This document shows, in pieces, positions 5,622-62,804 of a DNA stretch of 64,000 nucleotides (position 1 is the first letter of the stretch; every line of letters starts with the position of its first letter). Source of the DNA: Patescibacteria group bacterium (GTDB lineage: Bacteria; Patescibacteriota; Minisyncoccia; Phycocordibacterales; PALSA-1337). The DNA lies in contig JBBTRB010000003.1 in assembly GCA_038065395.1 (NCBI GenBank), positions 85,800 through 149,799 of the forward strand, read 5' to 3'. The translations under genes and the position numbers were made by a program. The notes below the pieces were generated by a model. That model did no database searches, had not been told where the DNA came from, and saw nothing but the letters and a program-made list of their open reading frames with translations.

Positions 5622-6098
5622 ATGCTATACTTATCCCATATGGAACCACTCATCTCCTGGCACGCACCTACCCACATCCACAGAGAGAAGCGCTCCGACT
5701 GGTATTGGGTCGTCGGTATCATCACACTGGCACTGGCGGCAGTGGCCTTTATGTTCGGCGAGGTTATCACCGGCATATTCGTGATCGTAGCGGCAGTTGC
5801 ACTGATCCTCCACGCCTCTCACCCACCACACACCGTCTCCTATCACATCAACGACCGTGGGATCCTGGCCAACGACACTCTCTATCCATTCCTGACACTA
5901 GAGTCGTTCTGTATCCCTCATGACCATGTGCCACCGAGATTGATCATCAAGTCACGCAAAGTATTCATGCCACTGATCGTCATATACATAGACGACGTCG
6001 AACCTGAAGAAGTCCGTCGCACACTCCTACGCTACATCGCCGAGACTGAACATCGTGAACCGATCCTGAAGTTGCTGTTGGAGAGGCTTGGGTTTTAA
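5622..6098 (+). CDS. hypothetical membrane protein
   Basis: 158 aa ORF with two transmembrane helices; it abuts the RhuM-family gene. Confidence 0.35.
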   Translation: MLYLSHMEPLISWHAPTHIHREKRSDWYWVVGIITLALAAVAFMFGEVITGIFVIVAAVALILHASHPPHTVSYHINDRGILANDTLYPFLTLESFCIPHDHVPPRLIIKSRKVFMPLIVIYIDDVEPEEVRRTLLRYIAETEHREPILKLLLERLGF

Positions 6099-6099
6099 A

Positions 6100-7119
6100 C
6101 TATTCGTTATTCTTAAGGATCTTTTTCACCTCCCTGTCGAAATCTGATTCGATCTTTTGATGTTTATTGAACTCTTTGTATTCCTCGATCGCTTTGGTAT
6201 CTGCATCCACCTTTGAGATCTGTCCTTTGCCAGCGAGGATTTTGTATTCGTTAAATGTCAGGAATTTATCGACACTCCCGGCGAACTCCTTCATGGTAAA
6301 CGTATTGTTACGTGCAATAAGACCTTCGATATAATCAAAAAAGCCTGTAACCGTCCGCTCGAGCTGTTTGATCTCGGATACTCCCAAATAATTCTTGGCG
6401 ATCGTCACGTCAGACTGCAACACTCTACCCTCCGGAGAGTTTTTCCATGTTGTAAGACCCATGTGTGGTGATCGTGCATTTGCCTTGGCGTGAATGATTT
6501 CCGGGCCAGTCTTGCCTGTTATAGCGAAGTGAAATTTGTTTTGTACCATGGCATAAAAATCCTGACTGACGGATGACTCGCGATCGTAGTCGATGCTACA
6601 TTCTGCAAAAATATCGGTGATCTGTTGGTACACTCGCCGTTCGCTCGCACGGATGGAACGTACACGCTCCAAAAGTTCTCGGAAATAATCCACGCTGAAT
6701 AGTTTTTTACCCTGTTTGAGCCTCTCATCGTCCAGTGCGAATCCTTTGATGATAAATTCTCGCAACACCTGGGTTGCCCATATACGAAACTGTGTGGCTC
6801 TTTTAGAGTTTACTCTGTAGCCTACGGCAATGACGGCATCGAGGTTGTAGTGTTGGGTATCGTACGATTTACCGTCATCTGCAGTTATCCGGAAAATCCG
6901 GACAACTGAATCTTCGCTCAATTCACTGCTTCTAAAGATGTTTTGAAGGTGTTCGCTGATCGTGCGCGTGTTGGCATCAAAAAGTTCGGCCATAAGCTTC
7001 TGAGTGAGCCAGACCATCTCTCCTTCTACACGAACCTCGATCTTGGGATTACCAGCCCCGGCAGTAAAGATCAGGAATTCGGCGGTGGTATTTCTTTGTA
7101 GGCCTTTATCATTCTTCAT
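6100..7119 (-). CDS. virulence RhuM family protein
   Basis: 339 aa: VWLTQKLMAELFDANTRTISEHLQNIF...DGKSYDTQHYNLDAVIAVGYRVNSKRATQFRIWATQVLREFIIKGFALDDERL matches the conserved RhuM core. Confidence 0.75.
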   Translation of the reverse strand: MKNDKGLQRNTTAEFLIFTAGAGNPKIEVRVEGEMVWLTQKLMAELFDANTRTISEHLQNIFRSSELSEDSVVRIFRITADDGKSYDTQHYNLDAVIAVGYRVNSKRATQFRIWATQVLREFIIKGFALDDERLKQGKKLFSVDYFRELLERVRSIRASERRVYQQITDIFAECSIDYDRESSVSQDFYAMVQNKFHFAITGKTGPEIIHAKANARSPHMGLTTWKNSPEGRVLQSDVTIAKNYLGVSEIKQLERTVTGFFDYIEGLIARNNTFTMKEFAGSVDKFLTFNEYKILAGKGQISKVDADTKAIEEYKEFNKHQKIESDFDREVKKILKNNE

Positions 7120-15468: not shown

Positions 15469-15525
15469 TTGCTGACCCTCTTCGCAGGCGCCACGTTCAA
15501 TACTTGTCACCCTCAGTTAATATAT

Positions 15526-15905
15526 GTCATCCCCGCGAAAGCGGGGATCCAGGATCATACCACTGACATGATAGATCCTTCCATTGAGGATTAGACTTCT
15601 CGATCAATTCAAGTTTCCACTTCCTACTCCACTTCTTAAGCTGTTTTTCTCTTGTCAAAGCAGCATTCACATCTATGGTTTCTTCAAAATATACTAATTG
15701 AGATATATCATATTTTTCAGTGAATCCAGGTATTATTTTGTGTATATGTTCGTATATACGACGTTCGAGATTATTGGTTACTCCAATATATAATGTTCCG
15801 TTTCTTTTGTTAGTGAGAATATAGATGTAGTAACTCATACCTACGATTGTAGCTAACTAACATACGGGATGCTAATCCTGGATTCCCGCTTTCGCGGGAA
15901 TGACA
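15526..15905. mobile_element. GIY-YIG gene bounded by 31-bp inverted hairpin repeats (candidate autonomous member of the hairpin-TIR repeat family)
   Basis: Left TIR 15526-15556 tgtcatccccgcgaaagcggggatccaggat; right TIR 15875-15905 atcctggattcccgctttcgcgggaatgaca, its reverse complement with two T/C changes. The subterminal aggatcaY is shared with the MITE-like copies at 35259 and 62618. Confidence 0.5.
15527..15838 (-). CDS. GIY-YIG nuclease family protein (YhbQ/COG2827-like URI domain)
   Basis: 103 aa: YIYILTNKRNGTLYIGVTNNLERRIYEH is the GIY-YIG core. The last 9 codons and the stop lie inside the left hairpin repeat. Confidence 0.7.
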   Translation of the reverse strand: MSYYIYILTNKRNGTLYIGVTNNLERRIYEHIHKIIPGFTEKYDISQLVYFEETIDVNAALTREKQLKKWSRKWKLELIEKSNPQWKDLSCQWYDPGSPLSRG

Positions 15906-17009: not shown

Positions 17010-17046
17010 GGCGTATCATCCTATAATAGCGATGATGCGCTTTTTT
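17010..17046. terminator. bidirectional intrinsic terminator between tRNA-Lys and the MazF-like gene
   Basis: Hairpin ggcgtatcatc-ctataatag-cgatgatgcgc followed by tttttt on plus, with an A-run before it (T-run on minus). It overlaps the last codons of the MazF-like ORF. Confidence 0.4.
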
Positions 17047-17426
17047 AATTCCTCAAAATCTTTCGTGGACATAGAACCTATTTTATATTTAAGTCTCTTA
17101 CTATCTATCAAACGAAGCTGGGACAGATTTGCCGTACTCACGGAGTCTATTCCGTGTCGAAATTCAAAGTAATATTTTCCAGACTTATTTCTTGAAGTCA
17201 GGGGTATGCCCCACAAAGTCTCCTTGTTGAATTTCTTTAAAATGACAACGGGTCGTAAAAATTCTTCGCCTTTACCATCCTGTTCAAAGCCCACATTCAT
17301 TCTCAGCAAGGAAAACCAAACATCCTTTTCATTGAAAAATGGAACTCTCGAGCCATTCTCATGGAGATCATACTTTTGGATATGCCACTTTTGAAAATCC
17401 TTTTTCATTGCGCACAAGTATATCAA
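17016..17426 (-). CDS. MazF/PemK family endoribonuclease toxin (apparently orphan)
   Basis: RPVVILKKF...LWGIPLTS...GKYYFEF...VSTANLSQLRLIDSKRL...IGSMSTKDFEELKKRIIAIIG aligns with E. coli MazF (RPAVVLSPF...YPFEVVL...ADQVKSIAWRARGATKKGTVAPEELQLIKAKINVLIG). Confidence 0.6.
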   Translation of the reverse strand: MIYLCAMKKDFQKWHIQKYDLHENGSRVPFFNEKDVWFSLLRMNVGFEQDGKGEEFLRPVVILKKFNKETLWGIPLTSRNKSGKYYFEFRHGIDSVSTANLSQLRLIDSKRLKYKIGSMSTKDFEELKKRIIAIIG

Positions 17427-18195: not shown

Positions 18196-20721
18196 TTATT
18201 TGAGATCTCCCCAATTCGCACCGACCGCCATCTCTGAGGTCAGTGTGATCCCTGCGATATCCTTGGGGTCAATGATCGATTCCATGATCGAGCGGATTTT
18301 CTCCCCTATTTCGTGTGCACGATCTTCGCGGATCTCATAGACCAGTTCGTCGTGCACCTGGAGTATCGGAAATGCCACATCAGTGAGACCTGCCTCCTTG
18401 AGCCAGCTGTCTACCTTGATCAATGCCAGCTTTACCACATCGGCTTCTGTCCCCTGGATCGGGGCATTGAAAGCCATGCGTTCGGCCTGTGCACGAATAT
18501 ACGGAATCTTGGAATTGATCCCCTCAAAATATCGACGACGACCAAAGAAGGTTTCTGTATACCCGGTACGAGCGGCGTCAGCCTTGACCTGGTCAATGTA
18601 TGCGGCGAGTGTAGAAAATGTCGCGAAATAATCATCCATGAATTTCTGAGCTTCGGCGCGATCGGTGCCGAGATTTTGTTTGAGCGCCATAACGCCCATG
18701 CCGTACAGGATGCCGAAGTTGATGACCTTGGCCTTGCGACGCATATCAGAAGTCACCTCGGTCAGTGGAACTTTGAATACCGAACTTGCAACCGACGTAT
18801 GGACATCTGTGCCATTTTTGAAAATATCGATCAACGTTTGATCCTTGGAGAGAAATGCTGCGATACGCAACTCGATCTGAGAATAGTCGAGTGACACCAG
18901 AGCAAAACCTTTCTCAGCTACGAACGCTTTGCGAATAGCTTTGCCCAGCTCGGACTTCACCGGGATATTTTGCAGATTCGGGTCGAGAGATGCCATACGA
19001 CCTGTCGTTGTCCCTGCGGGAATAAAGTCCGAATGCAGACGGTTGTTGCTATCGAGTTGTGGTGGGATAGCATCGATATAGGTAGAGAGGAGCTTTTGTA
19101 GTTCGCGATATTCGAAGATCATCGGAATGATCGGGTGCAGGTCACGGAGCTTCTCGAGTTCTGACTCACGTGTCGAACGTGCTCCCCCACTCGTCTTCTT
19201 CATGTTCTTGCCGACGAGTCCGAGCTTGTCGAACAGGATCTCACCGAGCTGTTTGGGTGAATTGATATTGAACTCAACCCCTGCGGCTGCAGTGATGTTT
19301 TTCTCCAAGAGTGCAAGTTCCTTGTGATATTTCTTGGAAAGATCTGCCAAGAATACTTTGTCGATCTTGACCCCACGCTCTTCCATCCGGTGCGTGATCG
19401 GGAGCAGGGGTAGCTCGAGTGTTTCGTATACGGTGCGGAGATTGCGCCTGTCGAGCTCTTCGAAGATCATTTTTTTGGCGACTTCATAGTCGTCAGTATT
19501 AGCGAAATTCAATATGTCTTCGAGTTGAGGATTGGTGGCATTGGAGTTTATGAGCCATAGTGCCACTCCGGTTTTCTCGATCTCTTCCTTGGAAACAAGA
19601 GGTGATTCTGCACCGCGGATCCCCGCCTGCGCGGGGATGACAGAAAATATGTCACCTTGCCCTCCCGTTTTGTCATCCCCGCGCAGGCGGGGATCTGCGC
19701 TCCCGACAGTAACTACACTCATTGCACTACTCTTCTTCCCTGCCAAGACATTTTCCAACCTTTGCCCGAGAGTTCGGAATTCCAACACATTCCACAACGC
19801 CTTTACCTTCTTGAGGTCAACGTTCTCTTTGAATGTCTTTTCTGGGAAGACGAAATCGATCGGTGCATCACGACGGATAGTCGCCAGCATCTTACTGAAC
19901 ATCGCCTCGTCTTTGTTATCTTTCAGGAGTTGTACGATACGTGGCGTGATCCCGGCTTTGATGAATGCATCTTCATGTCCTGCCTCAAGTTCCACATACA
20001 TATTCTCGAGTGTTCCGAATGAGGTGATGAGGATGGTCGCCGTCTTCTCGCCGACACCTTTGATCCCAGGAATATTGTCAGACGGATCGCCGCGAAGTCC
20101 TTTGTAGTCAGGGATGAGCTCTGGTCCAAAGCCAAATCTTTCCTGTACGGCTTTCTCGTCGTACATGATCGTATCTTTGATCCCCTTCTTGAGAGTGAAT
20201 ACTTTGACCTGCGTACCCGAGATCAGTTGCAACGTATCCATATCGCCAGAAGCGATGATGATCTCTAAATCTTCATCCGACCCGCGGATCCCCGCCTTCG
20301 CGGGGATGACAGGGTTCTTTTCCTCGCTTCCTGAATCTTGAATCATGAATCCCGCATTCTTGAGCTGCTCCACGATCGTCCCCAACATATCGTCAGCCTC
20401 AAAGCCTGCTTTGTCATAGATGGGAATATTGAGAGCCTCGAATACTTGCCGAGACGTATTGAGCTGACGGATCAGAGCATCATCGGTCTTTTGTCTACCC
20501 GCTTTGTATTCTTTGAAGACTTCATGTCGATGAGTCGGCCCTGCCAAGTCGTACGCAGCCACTATATAGTCTGGTTTGAGATCCTCAATGGTCTTGATCA
20601 GCATCGTTGAGAGTCCATATAGAGCTCCTGTCGGTTCGCCTTGTGCAGTCGAAAAGTCTGGCAATGCATGATATGCACGATGCAATATGGCATGCGAGTC
20701 GAGCAAAATGAGTCTTTTCAT
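18196..20721 (-). CDS. polA: DNA polymerase I
   Basis: 841 aa with an N-terminal 5'-3' exonuclease (GFEADDMLGT) and the C-terminal family A polymerase motifs (DYSQIELR, RRKAKVINFGILYG, QVHDELV). It carries repeat-encoded in-frame insertions. Confidence 0.9.
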   Translation of the reverse strand: MKRLILLDSHAILHRAYHALPDFSTAQGEPTGALYGLSTMLIKTIEDLKPDYIVAAYDLAGPTHRHEVFKEYKAGRQKTDDALIRQLNTSRQVFEALNIPIYDKAGFEADDMLGTIVEQLKNAGFMIQDSGSEEKNPVIPAKAGIRGSDEDLEIIIASGDMDTLQLISGTQVKVFTLKKGIKDTIMYDEKAVQERFGFGPELIPDYKGLRGDPSDNIPGIKGVGEKTATILITSFGTLENMYVELEAGHEDAFIKAGITPRIVQLLKDNKDEAMFSKMLATIRRDAPIDFVFPEKTFKENVDLKKVKALWNVLEFRTLGQRLENVLAGKKSSAMSVVTVGSADPRLRGDDKTGGQGDIFSVIPAQAGIRGAESPLVSKEEIEKTGVALWLINSNATNPQLEDILNFANTDDYEVAKKMIFEELDRRNLRTVYETLELPLLPITHRMEERGVKIDKVFLADLSKKYHKELALLEKNITAAAGVEFNINSPKQLGEILFDKLGLVGKNMKKTSGGARSTRESELEKLRDLHPIIPMIFEYRELQKLLSTYIDAIPPQLDSNNRLHSDFIPAGTTTGRMASLDPNLQNIPVKSELGKAIRKAFVAEKGFALVSLDYSQIELRIAAFLSKDQTLIDIFKNGTDVHTSVASSVFKVPLTEVTSDMRRKAKVINFGILYGMGVMALKQNLGTDRAEAQKFMDDYFATFSTLAAYIDQVKADAARTGYTETFFGRRRYFEGINSKIPYIRAQAERMAFNAPIQGTEADVVKLALIKVDSWLKEAGLTDVAFPILQVHDELVYEIREDRAHEIGEKIRSIMESIIDPKDIAGITLTSEMAVGANWGDLK
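19617..19695. repeat. inverted pair of hairpin repeats inside polA (CAGG-loop variant)
   Basis: ggatccccgcctgcgcggggatgaca (19617-19642) and tgtcatccccgcgcaggcggggatc (19671-19695). Read in the polA frame they give ADPRLRGDDK...VIPAQAGIRG. Confidence 0.8.
20286..20311. repeat. single hairpin repeat inside the polA 5'-3' exonuclease domain (GAAGGC-loop variant)
   Basis: ggatccccgccttcgcggggatgaca; in the polA frame it encodes VIPAKAGIRG. Confidence 0.8.
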
Positions 20722-35233: not shown

Positions 35234-35258
35234 GGTGTCTGTGTCATTCCTGCTTCTC

Positions 35259-35446
35259 TTGTCATCCCCGCGAAAGCGGGGATCCAGAGGCAAGGGCGTG
35301 GCTACTGACTTATATCTATATCATCACAAACTATTAGGGACCATCCCTGTAATTGCATGCCGAACCTGTCACGTTCAGCGAAGATATAGATTAATCGGAC
35401 TATATACTGGAAGTGATCCTGGATCCCCGCTTTCGCGGGGATGACA
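35259..35446. mobile_element. MITE-like element: hairpin TIRs around a 125-bp ORF-less core
   Basis: tgtcatccccgcgaaagcggggatccagagg ... atcctggatccccgctttcgcggggatgaca; the core is about 78% identical to the reverse complement of the 62618-62804 core. Confidence 0.6.
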
Positions 35447-47790: not shown

Positions 47791-48786
47791 CTATGGAGAA
47801 GTTCCGATCTTGAGAATAGTCCCCTTCGGACTTCCTTGTGCAGAACACCCTGTGCCAGCGTATACCATGCACGAAGCTCCACCAGGTGTGTAGTCTCCCA
47901 GAACATTTACCCCGATAGTAGTTACATTATAAAAAGAATGAAGAATACTCGATCCTGTTGTATATAACAAAGAAGTCATGCTTCCTCGGACATCCTGGAT
48001 ATCGAGCAGTATAGATGAGCTGCAGGTACAATACGTTATGTTATAGACCATGCCACCAAAGGTCATTGCCCCGCCTCCTCCGAGAGCTGCACCACCGAGA
48101 GCTGCACCTCCGCCGATCGCTGCACCCCCAGCTCCACCACCACCGTCGTCATCCCCGCCTCCAAAAAATGACCCGACCGTGCTAAATGTAGCTCCAGTGG
48201 GCGTTAATTTATATAACAAATCAGACATAGTTGTATCGCCAGTGAGTTGGCCGAGGCCTGCATCGAACATCCATCCCGAAACCTCACGGTCGATCTCCTC
48301 GATACTTTTGCTGTCACCGCCAGAATTCCTCGTAGTTTCGGTGCCACCTGTCGTCCTTTGTCCGGAGGTGTTGGTGTAGAAATATGACTGATTTTGCCAG
48401 GCAGGAATGTCAGAATCTTGGTTTATAGGTTGATTTTGTTGAGGTTGTTGGGTAGAAGTCGTCACGGGCTGGGTCGATGTGCTCGTAGAAGTGTTGGTTG
48501 GGCGTGTATTCGTTGTAGTGTCACGATATTCTGGTGTGTTTTGTCTTACCGGGACTACCTGTACAGACGTATCGGTGCCGGTAAAAGGGTTGATATTGAG
48601 ACCTGTCGAAGTAGCAGTGGGGACAGCATCGGGAGACAGTCCTCGGTCAACAGAGGAGAAACTAGGGTTATTCGGGTCATCGGTCTGTGTCGTAGTCGGG
48701 AAAAACAGTGAATACACATAGAGGATAACCCCGATCAGGATGAGGAGAATGACCACAAAAATCCCTAGACGTAGTGGATGTTGCAC
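47791..48786 (-). CDS. hypothetical membrane-anchored Thr/Gly-rich protein (first gene of the T4SS operon)
   Basis: 331 aa with an N-terminal transmembrane helix, a Thr-rich linker and a Gly-rich segment. Confidence 0.45.
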   Translation of the reverse strand: MQHPLRLGIFVVILLILIGVILYVYSLFFPTTTQTDDPNNPSFSSVDRGLSPDAVPTATSTGLNINPFTGTDTSVQVVPVRQNTPEYRDTTTNTRPTNTSTSTSTQPVTTSTQQPQQNQPINQDSDIPAWQNQSYFYTNTSGQRTTGGTETTRNSGGDSKSIEEIDREVSGWMFDAGLGQLTGDTTMSDLLYKLTPTGATFSTVGSFFGGGDDDGGGGAGGAAIGGGAALGGAALGGGGAMTFGGMVYNITYCTCSSSILLDIQDVRGSMTSLLYTTGSSILHSFYNVTTIGVNVLGDYTPGGASCMVYAGTGCSAQGSPKGTILKIGTSP

Positions 48787-57656: not shown

Positions 57657-59441
57657 TTACAATACCTTACCCCACTTCCCTATCCACTCCCTGAAATCTT
57701 CCCAGCCGAATTTTTTACCCTCAATACTATTCATATCTTTGAAAAAAGGTATCAGTAGTGACAGGTCGCTTTGTAAAAAGATTTCAGTTTGTTTGATGAT
57801 CTCATGTGTATCAGCATGCCAATAGTCTGGTTTGTGCGAATAGTACGCATCTAGTCGTCGATGATATTCGAGCGAATTCACGAGTCTGTGTTGTATACCA
57901 TTCAACACGAGACTTTGGATTGATGTGGTTGGATATTTCGATAATTGGCTGAGAGTCTGAGCAAGTTTTCCAATTGAGATATTTTCTTGCCCCATATTTT
58001 TCCGGATGGACTCCATCACGATCGTGGTGAGTGTCCATGTCGAATATGGTGCAGGTTTTGTATCTACGATCGGTGCGTATGCATGAGTGCGCCGATGTTC
58101 GACTGCATATGGGATAATCCCAGAGATATATTGAGGAAAACAGGTGTGTATGAGGTAGCCGAAGTTCGCATCCTCATTGGTGCCAACAGGTGGGAAAAAC
58201 GGCAACGGTTGTGAAGTGTCGAGTCCCATCACACCGAGATATTCTGCGCCACTGTACAACCTATACCCCTCTGCCATCCTCGCGATATTCGCCGATGACC
58301 TATTCTTCCTATACTCTTCCTCAGAATTTCCCCACAAGCTGTGCGGATGATCGGTATGATCTACCATCGTCGGTGGATGGGCTCGCATCCAGGAATGCCC
58401 GACGATTCCGGGGAATGTGACCGCAACTTTCTTGGAAGTGAGAGCTTGGCTGTGTATGTCTATGAATAAGGTGTTATTGATACCACCGAGTTCTGGGTCG
58501 AACTGGATATCCGCTGGTGAAATCTGTGAAATAAGCGAAGAGACGTTTTGTCCGAGTAGTTTCTCGTGCTCGCCGAGGTAGTCGACGTCCACAGTCGGGA
58601 AATAGTTCATTGCTTGTTCGTAGCTATCGAAGAACCATGAAGGCCGTGGTGGCATCGAGGAGATAGTGAGGGATTCAATGGTGGAGGTTGGCTTGTATCC
58701 GGGGAGTGTGTGCACAGTGCAGATCGTATCGTCATCCACCATGAGTATTTTTCTGCCTCGCGCATATAACATCAAGAAATTACGTAGTGCGCCGACATGG
58801 TTCTGGTCAGTATCGTCACCGCAGACAGTGAACTCGGCGATACTATACTCGACATTCTTATTCTTTGAGTACTCGTGTGCGAATTCCTTTCTCTTTGAAA
58901 TATCATGGTGAGAAATAGTCCCAGGGTATTTTTTCCTCAGTATATCTAGGGCGAGCCGATTCTTCTCCAAGAATTCCCTATCAGAATCATCCGCAACTAC
59001 AAATTCCGGTGTGCGGCCATATTTCATGACGTTTCCCATATAACTTTCGATACAACGAGCGAGTTCTGTTGGTCGGTTACGTGTTGGGATACCGATCATT
59101 TCTATCCTATTCGTCATCCCCGCATCTTTTCCTATCGAACCCACGATCTTCGCACGAATATCATCTTCAGATACGAGCAACCCAGCCTCAGCACATTTCT
59201 CTAATACCTCTACATACTGCGAAAAACTTCCCGTATGCTCTGCATAACGAGAAGTGTATATTTCGACATGACGTCGCAGAGTCTGCCAGGTATTGCTGTA
59301 GAGGAGGAGTGCCGTCTCGTCGGGTGCAAGATCGACGTATTTTCCCTGGCTGTCTATCCCTGAAACACGGTTACGTACTCCGTGATCGACCGGTTCCATA
59401 GAGATGAGATTGCATCTATATCGTTGGTCGGAGTCTTTCAT
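57657..59441 (-). CDS. glycosyltransferase family 2-like protein with large C-terminal extension
   Basis: IPTRNRPTELARCIESY...EFVVADDSDREF matches the GT2 N-terminal motif including DxD. Confidence 0.55.
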   Translation of the reverse strand: MKDSDQRYRCNLISMEPVDHGVRNRVSGIDSQGKYVDLAPDETALLLYSNTWQTLRRHVEIYTSRYAEHTGSFSQYVEVLEKCAEAGLLVSEDDIRAKIVGSIGKDAGMTNRIEMIGIPTRNRPTELARCIESYMGNVMKYGRTPEFVVADDSDREFLEKNRLALDILRKKYPGTISHHDISKRKEFAHEYSKNKNVEYSIAEFTVCGDDTDQNHVGALRNFLMLYARGRKILMVDDDTICTVHTLPGYKPTSTIESLTISSMPPRPSWFFDSYEQAMNYFPTVDVDYLGEHEKLLGQNVSSLISQISPADIQFDPELGGINNTLFIDIHSQALTSKKVAVTFPGIVGHSWMRAHPPTMVDHTDHPHSLWGNSEEEYRKNRSSANIARMAEGYRLYSGAEYLGVMGLDTSQPLPFFPPVGTNEDANFGYLIHTCFPQYISGIIPYAVEHRRTHAYAPIVDTKPAPYSTWTLTTIVMESIRKNMGQENISIGKLAQTLSQLSKYPTTSIQSLVLNGIQHRLVNSLEYHRRLDAYYSHKPDYWHADTHEIIKQTEIFLQSDLSLLIPFFKDMNSIEGKKFGWEDFREWIGKWGKVL

Positions 59442-60104: not shown

Positions 60105-60194
60105 CGTCATCCCCGCGAAGGCGGGGATCTGCGCACAAGAATAGACAAATATTAACAGACTAGGTCATGGATCCCCGCCTTCGCGGGGATGACA
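60105..60194. repeat. bare inverted pair of hairpin repeats (GAAGGC-loop variant) with a 39-bp spacer
   Basis: cgtcatccccgcgaaggcggggatc (60105-60129) and ggatccccgccttcgcggggatgaca (60169-60194). Confidence 0.8.
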
Positions 60195-60573: not shown

Positions 60574-60864
60574 CGTACATTGGTTTTGTTTGGGAATGAG
60601 GCGATCAACACGGTCATCGCTGTGTAAGATGACCCAGGAGTTGTCCTCGTAGTTGACCCCCTAAGCGTCACCGGTACGGTATAAGCATAAGCGCCTTTCT
60701 CTTCGCTGGCCAGTTGGTACTGTGAGTGACGCCATAAAACAATAGGCGTCCCAATGGATGGTGTTGTGAAATTGCCACAACAAGAACATCCAGAGAGTAC
60801 AATATCATATCTAGTACTTTTGTCAAGTGCTCTCAGAAACGCATACTGCTACAATAGAGTAGTC

Positions 60865-61785
60865 ATGTCGCACAATATCTCCTCTCTCAAGCAGCAATTC
60901 CTAGAATACGTAGAGATCGAAAAGGGTCGTTCGGTCAAAACTGTTGAAAATTATGATCATTATCTCTCTGTTTTCATTCAACATTCGAAAGCCAAACAGC
61001 CGAGCGATATCACCGAGTCTGCTATCCGCGAATTCCGTCTATGGCTCAACCGCCAGTCTACAGGCAATAACCGCGCAACAGGAGCCACCCTCAAGAAAAA
61101 GACCCAGAACTACTACATGATTGCCATTCGCGCATTCCTCAAATATCTGGCCAAGTGCAATATCAAGACATTGAGCCCAGAATACATAGAGCTGGCCAAG
61201 ACGGGTGACAGACACCTCGATCTCATCTCTTCTGCAGAACTGGAGCGACTCCTTGACTGTCCCAAGGGTGACAGTCTCAGGGCGTTGAGAGATAGAGCCA
61301 TTCTTGAGATGCTTTTCTCTACAGGTTTGCGTGTATCTGAACTCTGCTCTCTCACTCGCGATATCGATATAACCGCTGACGACTTCTCTATTCGTGGCAA
61401 AGGAGACAAGATACGCGTAGTTTTCCTCTCCCCTGCCGCCAAGCAGATCCTCAAGAAATATCTCGACAAGCGTACTGATGCCGAGGACGCATTGTTCATA
61501 AAGATGGATGGTAAGGAGAATAAAGGCTCAGATTCAGGTCTTACTCGTCGCTCGATCGAGCGTATCGTCAAAGATCGCGCTGTAGAAGCTGGAATATCCA
61601 AAAAAGTCACTCCTCACGTCATTCGTCACTGTTTTGCCACCAATCTCCTTTCCAATGGTGCCGATCTGCGCTCAGTCCAGATGCTCCTCGGTCATGCCAA
61701 TATCAGTACTACGCAAATATATACCCATATCACCGACAACGAGCTCAAAAAGGTGCATCAGAAGTTTCATGGGAGGTCGAAATAG
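60865..61785 (+). CDS. tyrosine site-specific recombinase XerC/XerD family
   Basis: HVIRHCFATNLLSNGADLRSVQMLLGHANISTTQIYTH catalytic R-H-R-Y region and a XerD-like N-terminal core-binding domain; ATG at 60865. Confidence 0.8.
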   Translation: MSHNISSLKQQFLEYVEIEKGRSVKTVENYDHYLSVFIQHSKAKQPSDITESAIREFRLWLNRQSTGNNRATGATLKKKTQNYYMIAIRAFLKYLAKCNIKTLSPEYIELAKTGDRHLDLISSAELERLLDCPKGDSLRALRDRAILEMLFSTGLRVSELCSLTRDIDITADDFSIRGKGDKIRVVFLSPAAKQILKKYLDKRTDAEDALFIKMDGKENKGSDSGLTRRSIERIVKDRAVEAGISKKVTPHVIRHCFATNLLSNGADLRSVQMLLGHANISTTQIYTHITDNELKKVHQKFHGRSK

Positions 61786-62617: not shown

Positions 62618-62804
62618 TGTCATTCCCGCGAAAGCGGGAATCCAGGATCACTTCCAGTATAGAGTTGATGCAAGTCATATAAACAATGAATGTGAAGGGT
62701 TCAGCATTTACTCACAAGGATAGTTTATAGTAGTTTGCGATTATATAAATATAAGTAAGTAACCATGCCCTTGCTCCTGGATTCCCGCTTTCGCGGGAAT
62801 GACA
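62618..62804. mobile_element. MITE-like element: hairpin TIRs (T-variant) around a 125-bp core, inverted relative to the 35259 copy
   Basis: tgtcattcccgcgaaagcgggaatccaggat ... tcctggattcccgctttcgcgggaatgaca. Confidence 0.6.

What the first reader, a model, noticed from the sequence alone, without database searches (positions are those of the whole stretch)
15526..15905. Small GIY-YIG nuclease gene carried between 31-bp inverted hairpin repeats: candidate autonomous copy of a new repeat/mobile-element family
A 103-aa stand-alone GIY-YIG ORF (15527-15838, minus) sits exactly between two inverted copies of TGTCATYCCCGCGAAAGCGGGRATCCAGGAT (15526-15556 and 15875-15905). Each copy is itself a CCCCGCG-AAA-GCGGGG hairpin. 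The last nine codons of the ORF (DPGSPLSRG) and its TGA stop come from the left repeat, so gene and terminal repeat form one unit, as with IS transposase ORFs that end in their inverted repeat. The same terminal repeats, including the subterminal AGGATCAY, also bound two homologous ORF-less 125-bp cores (35259-35446, 62618-62804). They occur as bare inverted pairs at 60105-60194 and inside polA. That is the autonomous-element-plus-MITE pattern, but with a GIY-YIG (homing-endonuclease-type) nuclease in place of a DDE or HUH transposase. I do not know of a described IS or MITE family with this organisation.
Basis: partly seen in the sequence, partly recalled or inferred. Interest (0 to 1): 0.8.

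Follow-up and report, generated by a model that had tools for sequence, protein, structure and literature searches.

The report
Ssn hairpin-cutting nuclease with its repeats
The small nuclease gene framed by inverted hairpin repeats is real, but it is a new candidate-phyla (Patescibacteria) example of the Ssn nuclease/hairpin-repeat system described in Neisseria in 2025, not a new kind of element; whether such units move by themselves is still unproven.

Summary
A 103-aa GIY-YIG ORF (15527-15838, minus) lies between two inverted 28-31 bp hairpin repeats, and its last nine codons and stop come from the left repeat.

It is not a new family. The protein is 52% identical (E=1e-35, collinear) to the 94-aa Neisseria SsnA and keeps its catalytic Y6, Y17 and E64. 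The repeat matches the Neisseria NTS consensus at 27 of 28 bases. The published SRM search pattern finds 11 copies in the window against 0.4 expected.

This is therefore the Ssn/SRM system (Chenal et al. 2025). Its repeats are the "CGTC-tagged REPs" that Di Nocera et al. (2013) found to lack a dedicated transposase.

Comparative evidence supports gain of these sequences:
- The fpg-spoU site is filled in two lineages and empty in six.
- The closest Ssn homologs sit in other contexts, each with its own repeat pair.
- A 187-bp repeat-dimer element and three in-frame repeats in polA are absent from orthologs.
- The ssn gene has 33% GC against 48% for the window.

No target-site duplication was found. 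GIY-YIG enzymes are hydrolases, so "transposase" is unproven.

Verdict: new member of a known kind, of moderate-to-low interest.

The parts
15527..15838 (-). ssn gene: single-domain GIY-YIG nuclease of 103 aa. The conserved core is residues 1-~94. The last 9 codons and the TGA stop are encoded by the left SRM.
   Evidence: ORF. Pfam PF01541, E=1.6e-17. 52% identity, E=1e-35, gapless over residues 1-89 to the 94-aa N. gonorrhoeae SsnA ortholog, with Y6, Y17 and E64 in place. GC 32.6% against 48.4% for the window.
15525..15555 (+). Left SRM/NTS-type hairpin repeat, C-type stem ATCCCCGC-GAAA-GCGGGGAT. The TGTC head faces outward. The 28-bp SRM proper is 15525-15552.
15875..15905 (-). Right SRM, T-type stem ATTCCCGC-GAAA-GCGGGAAT, head facing outward. 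The 28-bp SRM proper is 15878-15905. It matches the Neisseria NTS consensus at 27 of 28 bases.
   Evidence: Identical except for base 1 to the N. gonorrhoeae copy at L036:467-494.
15846..15875 (-). Promoter-like site TTAGCA-18 nt-TACAAT. It starts at the inner edge of the right SRM and ends 7 nt before the ATG, which suggests a leaderless transcript.
   Evidence: Consensus scan only. Not evidence of function.
19615..19698 (.). Pair of SRMs inside polA (19615-19642 minus, 19671-19698 plus), heads facing inward, 28-bp spacer. They are read in frame as ...SADPRLRGDD...VIPAQAGIRG...
   Evidence: The DPRLRGDD-coding copy falls in a gap in the close PolA orthologs; the VIPAQAGIR stretch aligns only with unrelated linker residues there.
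20284..20311 (-). Solo SRM inside polA, read in frame as NPVIPAKAGIRGSD. It is part of a 14-aa insertion in a linker.
   Evidence: There is a 14-aa gap at this position in all six orthologs.
35260..35446 (.). 187-bp ORF-less element: two C-type SRMs with heads outward (35260-35287 plus, 35419-35446 minus) around a 131-bp core. It lies between the convergent genes yidC and a 431-aa gene.
   Evidence: The site is empty in the syntenic relative L031, where the two genes overlap.
62618..62804 (.). Second 187-bp ORF-less element: two T-type SRMs with heads outward. Its core is 75% identical to that of 35260-35446, in inverted orientation.
60105..60194 (.). Bare SRM dimer (60105-60132 plus, 60167-60194 minus), GAAG loop, 34-bp spacer, heads outward.
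35242..35253 (+). Half-SRM (head plus left stem arm, TGTCATTCCTGC), 6 nt outside the full SRM at 35260.
48147..48158 (+). Isolated half-SRM, CGTCATCCCCGC.
59112..59123 (+). Isolated half-SRM, CGTCATCCCCGC, inside the 594-aa ORF 57657-59441.

Best explanation
This is a Patescibacterial member of the Ssn/SRM system: a single-domain GIY-YIG site-specific ssDNA endonuclease (Ssn) together with its cognate hairpin repeats. Those repeats are known as SRM, as NTS in Neisseria, and as CGTC/TGTC-tagged REPs.

Inferred by homology to four enzymes characterised in vitro:
- When DNA is single-stranded, each repeat folds into an 8-bp hairpin.
- Ssn binds it. Binding reads the stem sequence and the C just 3' of the stem. 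Cleavage depends on the three unpaired bases (GTC) just 5' of the stem.
- Ssn nicks that strand a few nucleotides 5' of the head, in the variable flank. It does not cut the complementary strand, dsDNA or RNA.
- In the ssn unit both heads point outward. The predicted nicks therefore lie just left of 15525 on the top strand and just right of 15905 on the bottom strand.

Shown here by comparison:
- The ssn unit, a 187-bp repeat dimer and in-frame repeats in polA are present in this lineage and absent at the same sites in relatives.
- The ssn gene is compositionally foreign to this genome.

Inferred, not shown:
- The unit is a horizontally spreading selfish module.
- Its repeats multiply through host repair or recombination of Ssn-made nicks, not through transposase-type strand transfer.
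For: - Protein: GIY-YIG only. It is 52% identical (E=1e-35) and collinear with the 94-aa Neisseria SsnA ortholog. Y6, Y17 and E64, the residues whose mutation abolishes cleavage in SsnA, are conserved.
- Repeat: it matches the published NTS consensus at 27 of 28 bases. The published SRM pattern gives 11 copies against 0.42 expected. The GTC head and the C after the stem are present in all 11 copies.
- Hairpin: the stem covaries across loci, with 4 of 8 pairs showing compensatory changes and 96% of cells paired.
- Association: 13 of 15 homologs across phyla, plus the two closest homologs, are flanked by their own head-outward pair. 69 of 120 homolog C-termini read into a repeat, in all three frames, so the constraint is on the DNA and not on the peptide.
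- Gain or loss at fpg-spoU: filled in the window and in L029; empty in six related lineages.
- Other contexts: the closest Ssn homologs lie next to parB or next to T4SS-like genes.
- 187-bp element: its site is empty in L031.
- polA: six PolA orthologs have gaps at the positions of two of the three repeat-coded peptides.
- Composition: ssn GC3 is 33% against 57-60% in neighbouring genes.
Against: - No biochemistry exists for this protein.
- CDD cd10448 membership could not be run.
- No clean filled/empty junction could be derived, because the fpg-spoU spacer has diverged.
- No target-site duplication was found.
- In Neisseria the shown role is restriction of transforming ssDNA, not mobility.
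- In the L031/L038 relative, 28 kb holds only the two complete ssn-flanking repeats, plus half-repeat arrays beside them, so carrying ssn does not by itself mean repeat expansion.
- Low GC of ssn is seen in 18 of 18 loci and may partly reflect its Lys/Ile/Asn-rich composition.
Confidence: 0.85

Rival explanations
1. Autonomous IS-like transposon. Ssn would itself be the transposase. It would excise and reinsert the TIR-bounded unit, and it would mobilise the ORF-less repeat dimers in trans, as MITEs or REPINs are mobilised.
For: - TIR-gene-TIR architecture recurs across phyla.
- Two homologous 187-bp ORF-less dimers lie at unrelated loci.
- Filled and empty sites exist for the unit, for the dimer and for the intragenic copies.
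- The ssn gene has foreign base composition.
- The authors of the Ssn paper raise the same analogy.
Against: - GIY-YIG enzymes hydrolyse DNA and form no covalent intermediate (established knowledge of the superfamily). They therefore cannot by themselves rejoin strands.
- Characterised Ssn enzymes cut only ssDNA and only the strand that carries the repeat in forward sense. With heads outward, each strand is cut once at opposite ends, so neither strand is excised.
- No TSD and no conserved target sequence were found.
- The cores show no ssn remnant.
Confidence: 0.2
2. Domesticated host function, as shown in Neisseria. Ssn would cut repeat-bearing ssDNA that enters by natural transformation or arises in repair. 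The repeats would then mark genes whose replacement or recombination is to be limited, and the repeats would persist because they are useful.
For: - SsnA/NTS lowers integration of NTS-flanked transforming DNA in N. meningitidis.
- The window's repeat is nearly identical to the NTS.
- Relatives of this organism encode type IV pilus components near this locus: PilM-like, a T2SSE ATPase and an N-methyl pilin. DNA uptake is considered common in Patescibacteria; that point is my own knowledge.
Against: - ssn is not syntenic among close relatives, and it is absent from six lineages at this site.
- Its composition is foreign.
- Repeats sit inside polA linkers and between convergent housekeeping genes, not around surface-protein genes.
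- This view is compatible with the best explanation at the enzyme level. It differs only on who benefits.
Confidence: 0.3
3. Coincidence. The flanks would be ordinary intergenic hairpins, such as terminators, that happen to lie beside an unrelated GIY-YIG gene.
For: The unit lies between convergent genes, where terminator hairpins are expected. Relatives have other hairpins at that position.
Against: - The same head-stem-tail repeat flanks homologs in Saccharibacteria, Coxiellaceae, Bradyrhizobium, Methylophilaceae, Chloroflexota, Neisseria and others.
- No T-run terminator is found.
- Copies occur inside polA.
- The count is 11 copies against 0.42 expected.
Confidence: 0.02

Closest known systems
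Ssn / SRM system (NTS-ssnA-NTS of Neisseria meningitidis; Chenal et al. 2025, Nat Commun 16:2388, PMC11893778)
   Same: - Single-domain GIY-YIG protein of about 94 aa, 52% identical here, with the catalytic Y6/Y17/E64.
- Repeat (C/T)GTCATTCCCGCGAAAGCGGGAATCCAG, 27 of 28 bases identical to the NTS consensus.
- The gene is flanked on both sides by the repeat, and the genome holds many further copies.
   Different: - The host is a Patescibacteria (CPR) MAG, a group the paper does not mention.
- There is a simple single pair with heads outward, where Neisseria has clusters of mixed orientation.
- The ORF borrows its stop codon from the repeat.
- 3 of 11 copies lie inside a gene, against 2% inside genes in N. 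meningitidis.
- Activity is untested here.
CGTC-tagged REPs, family CGTC-1 (Di Nocera et al. 2013, PMC3733652). These include Neisseria dRS3 and Rickettsia RPE-4/RPE-6.
   Same: - Unpaired CGTC/TGTC head.
- 8-bp stem that begins with A-T, T-A pairs.
- 4-nt loop and CCA tail.
- Mostly inverted dimers, located between convergent genes.
- In-frame copies in replication and repair genes, including DNA polymerase I.
   Different: That paper found no associated enzyme ('lack a dedicated transposase'). Here, and in Chenal 2025, the associated gene is ssn. Patescibacteria were not among its five phyla.
REPIN-RAYT (REP-associated tyrosine transposase) systems
   Same: - A gene flanked by inverted copies of the very hairpin repeat that is scattered through the genome, here one copy in the 64-kb window.
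- Non-autonomous repeat doublets.
- Recognition of ssDNA hairpins.
- No TSD.
   Different: - The enzyme is a GIY-YIG hydrolase, not an HUH/Y1 transposase.
- The head is CGTC/TGTC, not GTAG.
- RAYTs are mostly inherited vertically, whereas ssn here is non-syntenic and compositionally foreign.
IS200/IS605 family (IS608, ISDra2)
   Same: Acts on ssDNA and recognises hairpins at the element ends. No TSD.
   Different: - IS200/IS605 has no terminal inverted repeats.
- Both of its cuts are on the same strand.
- It uses covalent Y1 chemistry for strand transfer.
- None of these three holds here.
GIY-YIG homing endonucleases (I-TevI type) and DDE-type IS/MITE pairs (for example Correia elements)
   Same: GIY-YIG catalytic fold; TIR-bounded short non-coding copies.
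   Different: - No C-terminal DNA-binding domain and no intron. The NCBIfam group I intron endonuclease model scores 25.6 bits against a cut-off of 56.
- No DDE transposase and no TSD.

Membership tests
Ssn nuclease family / SRM system | Single-domain GIY-YIG protein of about 94-100 aa with no extra DNA-binding domain | tested here: met
   103 aa. Pfam GIY-YIG covers residues 3-76; the only other Pfam hit is a marginal, overlapping one to the related T5orf172 domain (E=8.9e-4, 20.2 bits against a cut-off of 20). The last 9 residues are repeat-encoded.
Ssn nuclease family / SRM system | Homology to Neisseria SsnA (the paper's criterion is E < 1e-10) | tested here: met
   52% identity, E=1e-35, over the full length of the 94-aa N. 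gonorrhoeae ortholog L036:601-885. The N. meningitidis protein itself was not available.
Ssn nuclease family / SRM system | Catalytic residues Y6 and Y17 (GIY/YIG tyrosines) and E64 (cofactor site) | tested here: met
   The alignment is gapless over residues 1-89, and Y6, Y17 and E64 are identical in both proteins. The mutants are described.
Ssn nuclease family / SRM system | Assignment to CDD cd10448 (GIY-YIG_unchar_3) | not testable with these tools
   No CDD library was available. NCBIfam has no specific model.
Ssn nuclease family / SRM system | Gene flanked 5' and 3' by repeats matching HGTCWYN(0-2)YYVSBRHN(0-5)WNVSBRGN(0-2)RNCYNB | tested here: met
   Matches at 15525-15552(+) and 15878-15905(-).
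Ssn nuclease family / SRM system | Many further repeat copies in the genome, enriched over shuffled sequence | tested here: met
   11 copies in 64 kb against a mean of 0.42 (maximum 2) in 100 dinucleotide shuffles. The whole genome was not available.
Ssn nuclease family / SRM system | Strand-specific cleavage of ssDNA only, a few nt 5' of the repeat | not testable with these tools
   This needs purified protein. The bases reported as critical (GTC head, C after the stem) are present in all 11 copies.
CGTC-tagged REP superfamily (CGTC-1) | Unpaired CGTC/TGTC head, 8-bp stem starting A-T/T-A, 4-nt loop, 3-nt CCA-type tail | tested here: met
   tgtc-ATCCCCGC-gaaa-GCGGGGAT-ccag.
CGTC-tagged REP superfamily (CGTC-1) | Mainly inverted dimers, with intragenic in-frame units in replication and repair genes | tested here: met
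   5 inverted pairs and 1 solo copy. 3 copies are in frame in polA.
REPIN-RAYT | Associated enzyme is an HUH/Y1 (IS200/IS605 TnpA-like) transposase, and the repeat carries a GTAG head | tested here: not met
   The protein is GIY-YIG and the head is TGTC/CGTC.
IS200/IS605 | Y1 transposase, no TIRs, both cleavage hairpins on the same strand | tested here: not met
   The ends are perfect inverted repeats on opposite strands. There is no Y1 domain.
Classical IS/MITE (DDE) | TIRs plus target-site duplication, with a DDE transposase in the autonomous copy | tested here: not met
   TIRs are present, but no TSD is seen at any of 4 elements or 3 further copies. The only ORF is GIY-YIG.
GIY-YIG homing endonucleases | GIY-YIG domain plus a C-terminal DNA-binding domain, intron-borne or free-standing in phage | tested here: not met
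   TIGR01453 scores 25.6 bits against a cut-off of 56.05, over residues 5-33 only. Phage records give only 3 weak hits.

The most novel reading that the evidence does not exclude
The SRM-ssn-SRM unit and its ORF-less repeat dimers could be a genuinely mobile, horizontally transferred element class. It would be driven by a GIY-YIG ssDNA nickase, not by a transposase, and it would have been recently active in this Patescibacterial lineage. The window and its relatives give comparative filled-site/empty-site evidence for the whole unit, for a 187-bp dimer and for in-frame copies in polA. That would supply the 'missing enzyme' for the CGTC-REP and RPE-type repeats and would imply a new, repair-dependent mode of repeat propagation.
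Probability: 0.45. Interest if true: 0.6.

Novelty: new member of a known kind. Interest (0 to 1): 0.3.

Why it matters
The case links three literatures on one object: dRS3/NTS in Neisseria, RPE in Rickettsia and CGTC-REPs in Alphaproteobacteria. It extends that object to the candidate phyla radiation.

It shows near-identical repeats (27 of 28 bases) and Ssn proteins about 50-70% identical in hosts as far apart as Patescibacteria and Betaproteobacteria. That argues for horizontal spread.

The filled and empty sites found here are the kind of evidence still missing for the published hypothesis that NTS-ssnA-NTS is, or was, a mobile element. They identify a small, tractable natural system for testing it: one gene and two repeat variants.

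For annotation:
- Peptide tails such as DPGSPLSRG, WIPAFAGMT and VIPAKAGIR are repeat read-through, not protein features.
- The 35 extra residues in this PolA are repeat insertions.

Tried and rejected
- Literature searches for GIY-YIG with MITE/inverted repeats, with REPIN/RAYT, and for the repeat-encoded peptides as literal strings found nothing relevant. The key paper surfaced only with 'CGTC' + 'REP' + 'GIY-YIG'.
- The search for COG2827/UPF0213/YhbQ/YazA was swamped by author names.
- Search of PDB sequences gave no hit at E <= 0.01.
- I tested whether the 125-131 bp cores of the 187-bp elements are internally deleted ssn genes. tblastn with 120 Ssn homologs hits only the repeat-encoded ends, so this is rejected.
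- Target-site duplications: none at any copy.
- A nucleotide-exact insertion junction for the ssn unit could not be obtained. The window and relative L026 share only ~20 bp (ACCCTCTTCGCAGGCGCCAC) after the fpg stop. The rest of the spacer, including two terminator-like hairpins, is replaced.
- Phage carriage: only 3 weak hits. Plasmid hits are mostly megaplasmids, chromids or mislabelled chromosomes.
- The published SRM pattern misses some true variants, for example L029 with stem CCCTGC. I therefore also used a generic GTC-stem-loop-stem finder.
- The supplementary tables of the Ssn paper are not held, so its taxon list could not be checked for CPR.

Full report
**Observation**

ORF 15527-15838 (minus strand) encodes 103 aa. 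Its only clear Pfam domain is GIY-YIG, PF01541, E=1.6e-17, residues 3-76; a marginal overlapping hit to T5orf172 is the only other.

The 31-bp repeat TGTCATYCCCGCGAAAGCGGGRATCCAGGAT lies at 15525-15555 (+) and 15875-15905 (-).

The reverse complement of the left copy reads GAT CCT GGA TCC CCG CTT TCG CGG GGA TGA. The last nine codons (DPGSPLSRG) and the stop codon therefore do come from the repeat.

Each copy folds as ssDNA into an 8-bp stem with a GAAA loop, -9 to -9.8 kcal/mol, z about -5.5.

The pattern has 7 matches in the window against none in 100 shuffles.

**Other copies in the window**

- Two 187-bp ORF-less elements lie at 35260-35446 and 62618-62804. Their cores are 75% identical over 130 bp, in opposite orientation.
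- A bare dimer lies at 60105-60194.
- Three copies lie inside polA: a pair at 19615-19698 with heads inward, and a solo copy at 20284-20311.
- Only one end of each 187-bp element carries the subterminal AGGATCAC.

**What it is**

The homolog list was the first clue. The protein has thousands of relatives at about 70% identity in Patescibacteria, Ignavibacteria, Margulisbacteria and Deltaproteobacteria.

In 69 of the top 120, the C-terminus reads into a hairpin repeat. All three reading frames occur: WIPAFAGMT/WIPDQVGND in 54, GFPLSRE/GSPLSRG in 12, and LDSR.../LDPR... in 3. That shows a DNA-level constraint, not a peptide-level one.

Twenty-two loci were fetched from reference genomes. In 13 of the 15 homologs with 53-72% identity, the gene lies between an inverted pair of (C/T)GTCAT-stem-loop-stem-ATCCAG repeats with heads pointing outward. 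Each pair has its own stem sequence. The hosts are Saccharibacteria, Coxiellaceae, Bradyrhizobium, Rhizomicrobium, Methylophilaceae, Desulfobacterales, Dehalococcoidales, another Chloroflexota MAG and one unclassified bacterial MAG.

Across 16 such repeats the stem is 96% paired, and 4 of 8 pairs show compensatory changes.

**Literature**

The CGTC/TGTC head identifies the repeats as the 'CGTC-tagged REPs' of Di Nocera et al. 2013 (PMC3733652). These have:
- 8-9 bp stems beginning with A-T pairs;
- 4-5 nt loops and a CCA tail;
- mostly inverted dimers;
- intragenic copies in replication and repair genes, including DNA polymerase I.

That paper states that they 'lack a dedicated transposase'. 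It equates them with Neisseria dRS3 and Rickettsia RPE-4/RPE-6.

Chenal et al. 2025 (PMC11893778) then supplied the enzyme:
- The Neisseria NTS repeat is CGTCATTCCCGCGMAVGCGGGAATCYRG.
- It is bound as ssDNA by SsnA, a 94-aa single-domain GIY-YIG protein (CDD cd10448).
- SsnA nicks that strand a few nucleotides 5' of the repeat. It does not cut the reverse strand, dsDNA or RNA.
- The Y6A, Y17A and E64A mutants bind but do not cut.
- 71% of homolog genes have at least one such repeat (SRM) nearby, and 42% have one on both sides.
- The authors note that NTS-ssnA-NTS looks like an IS and like REP/RAYT. They show only an effect on natural transformation.

**Membership tests**

- The published SRM pattern finds 11 copies in the window against 0.42 expected. 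Three copies match the NTS consensus at 27 of 28 bases.
- A mislabelled N. gonorrhoeae chromosome in the plasmid collection gave the 94-aa SsnA ortholog. The window protein is 52% identical to it (E=1e-35), gapless over residues 1-89. Y6, Y17 and E64 therefore coincide.
- One gonococcal repeat (L036:467-494) equals the window copy at 15878-15905 except for its first base.
- CDD assignment and enzyme activity could not be tested.
- It fails the defining tests for RAYT and IS200/IS605 (no HUH/Y1 domain), for DDE IS/MITE (no TSD), and for homing endonucleases (TIGR01453 scores 25.6 bits against a cut-off of 56).

**Is it mobile? Comparative evidence**

The window comes from contig CAYHKE010000001.1 (761,713 bp) of the Patescibacteria MAG GCA_964357315.1.

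*The ssn unit.* It fills the spacer between the convergent genes fpg and spoU.
- Six related lineages keep the local gene order, with Fpg or PolA 66-76% identical. Their spacer is 0-170 bp and has no ssn. Where DNA was held, it also has no repeat. These are L026-28, L033/34, L035, the P0123 contig (gene table only), L038 and L040.
- The closest relative, L029 (Fpg 84%), does carry an ssn unit at this site. Its repeat has a different stem (CCCTGC/GCAGGG). It starts 9 bp after the fpg stop, against 56 bp in the window. Its Ssn C-terminal part is only 64% identical. This suggests turnover or independent arrival.
- The two closest Ssn homologs sit next to parB (77% identity) and next to TraG/TraC/PrgI-like genes (70% identity). 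Each is framed by its own matched repeat pair.

*The 187-bp element.* Contig L031 is syntenic with the window around yidC. There yidC and the convergent 432-aa gene overlap, so the site of element 35260-35446 is empty.

*polA.* Six PolA orthologs (62-81% identity) have gaps exactly where this PolA carries NPVIPAKAGIRGSD and SADPRLRGDDKT. They are up to 59 residues shorter.

*Composition.* The ssn gene has 32.6% GC and 33% GC3. The window has 48.4% GC, and neighbouring genes have GC3 of 57-60%. The ssn value is the lowest of all 282-bp windows. ssn is below its flanks in 18 of 18 loci.

*Limits.*
- There is no TSD.
- No exact junction could be derived, because the spacer has diverged.
- The cores are not ssn remnants.
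- In the L031/L038 organism, 28 kb holds only the two complete ssn-flanking repeats, plus half-repeat arrays next to them.

**How it most likely works**

By homology, Ssn binds the folded repeat on ssDNA and nicks a few nucleotides 5' of the TGTC head.

With heads outward, the top strand would be nicked just left of 15525 and the bottom strand just right of 15905. That is one nick per strand at opposite ends. This differs from IS200/IS605, where both cuts are on one strand.

A GIY-YIG hydrolase cannot rejoin DNA. Any multiplication of repeats must therefore use host repair, recombination or ligation. This step is inference.

The promoter-like TTAGCA-18-TACAAT, ending 7 nt before the ATG, suggests a leaderless ssn transcript starting inside the unit. 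This rests on a consensus match only.

I rate membership and nuclease mechanism at 0.85. I rate the reading as a selfish, horizontally moving module whose repeats spread through nick repair at about 0.45. A Neisseria-like domesticated role in limiting ssDNA recombination remains possible and is not exclusive.

**Verdict**

Novelty: a new member, in Patescibacteria, of a known kind. Interest is moderate-to-low. The filled/empty-site evidence bears on the still-open question of whether Ssn units are mobile.

Noticed in passing
window 35242-35253, 48147-48158, 59112-59123; L031 about 5918-5939 and 6318-6400: Half-repeats consisting of the head plus the left stem arm only. One lies 6 nt outside the full repeat at 35260, and two are isolated. 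In L031 the ssn unit is bordered by tandem 22-bp half-units (TGTCATCCYCGCGAATTATCTK), one upstream and four downstream. The junctions between them fall where Ssn is reported to cut. This may be a footprint of repeated nicking and repair.
   Followed up: partly
window 15525-15552 vs 15878-15905: The two repeats flanking ssn differ by a compensated pair (ATCCCCGC/GCGGGGAT against ATTCCCGC/GCGGGAAT). Both variants occur elsewhere as homodimers: the C-type at 35260/35419 and the T-type at 62618/62777. The ssn unit is thus a heterodimer of the two repeat subfamilies in this genome.
   Followed up: partly
window 17016-17426 (minus): A PemK-type toxin gene lies between holA and tRNA-Lys. The syntenic relative L026 has no gene called at that position; it has a 352-bp gap between the 120-aa gene and holA. 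This is a second indel of a mobile-type gene in the same neighbourhood.
   Followed up: partly
window 60754-61785 (plus): A tyrosine recombinase (Phage_integrase with SAM-like N-terminal domain, XerC/D-like) starts 560 bp from the bare repeat dimer at 60105-60194. No link between the two was tested.
   Followed up: no
L031 + L038 (contig Ga0163150_10001280, 43 kb): A related Patescibacterium carries an ssn unit beside TraG/TraC/PrgI-like (type IV secretion) genes near dnaA-rpmH-rnpA-yidC. In the 28 kb sampled it has no complete repeat other than the two flanking ssn, only half-repeat arrays beside them. The window has 11 copies in 64 kb. Repeat expansion is therefore lineage-specific.
   Followed up: partly
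L036 (NZ_CP119140.1, PLSDB): A 2.17-Mb N. gonorrhoeae chromosome is filed as a 'plasmid' in PLSDB with almost no annotation. It supplied the SsnA ortholog, surrounded by at least 7 NTS copies in 1.5 kb in mixed orientations.
   Followed up: yes
window 15846-15875 (minus): A promoter-like TTAGCA-18-TACAAT lies only 7 nt upstream of the ssn ATG, with no Shine-Dalgarno spacing. This suggests a leaderless mRNA.
   Followed up: no
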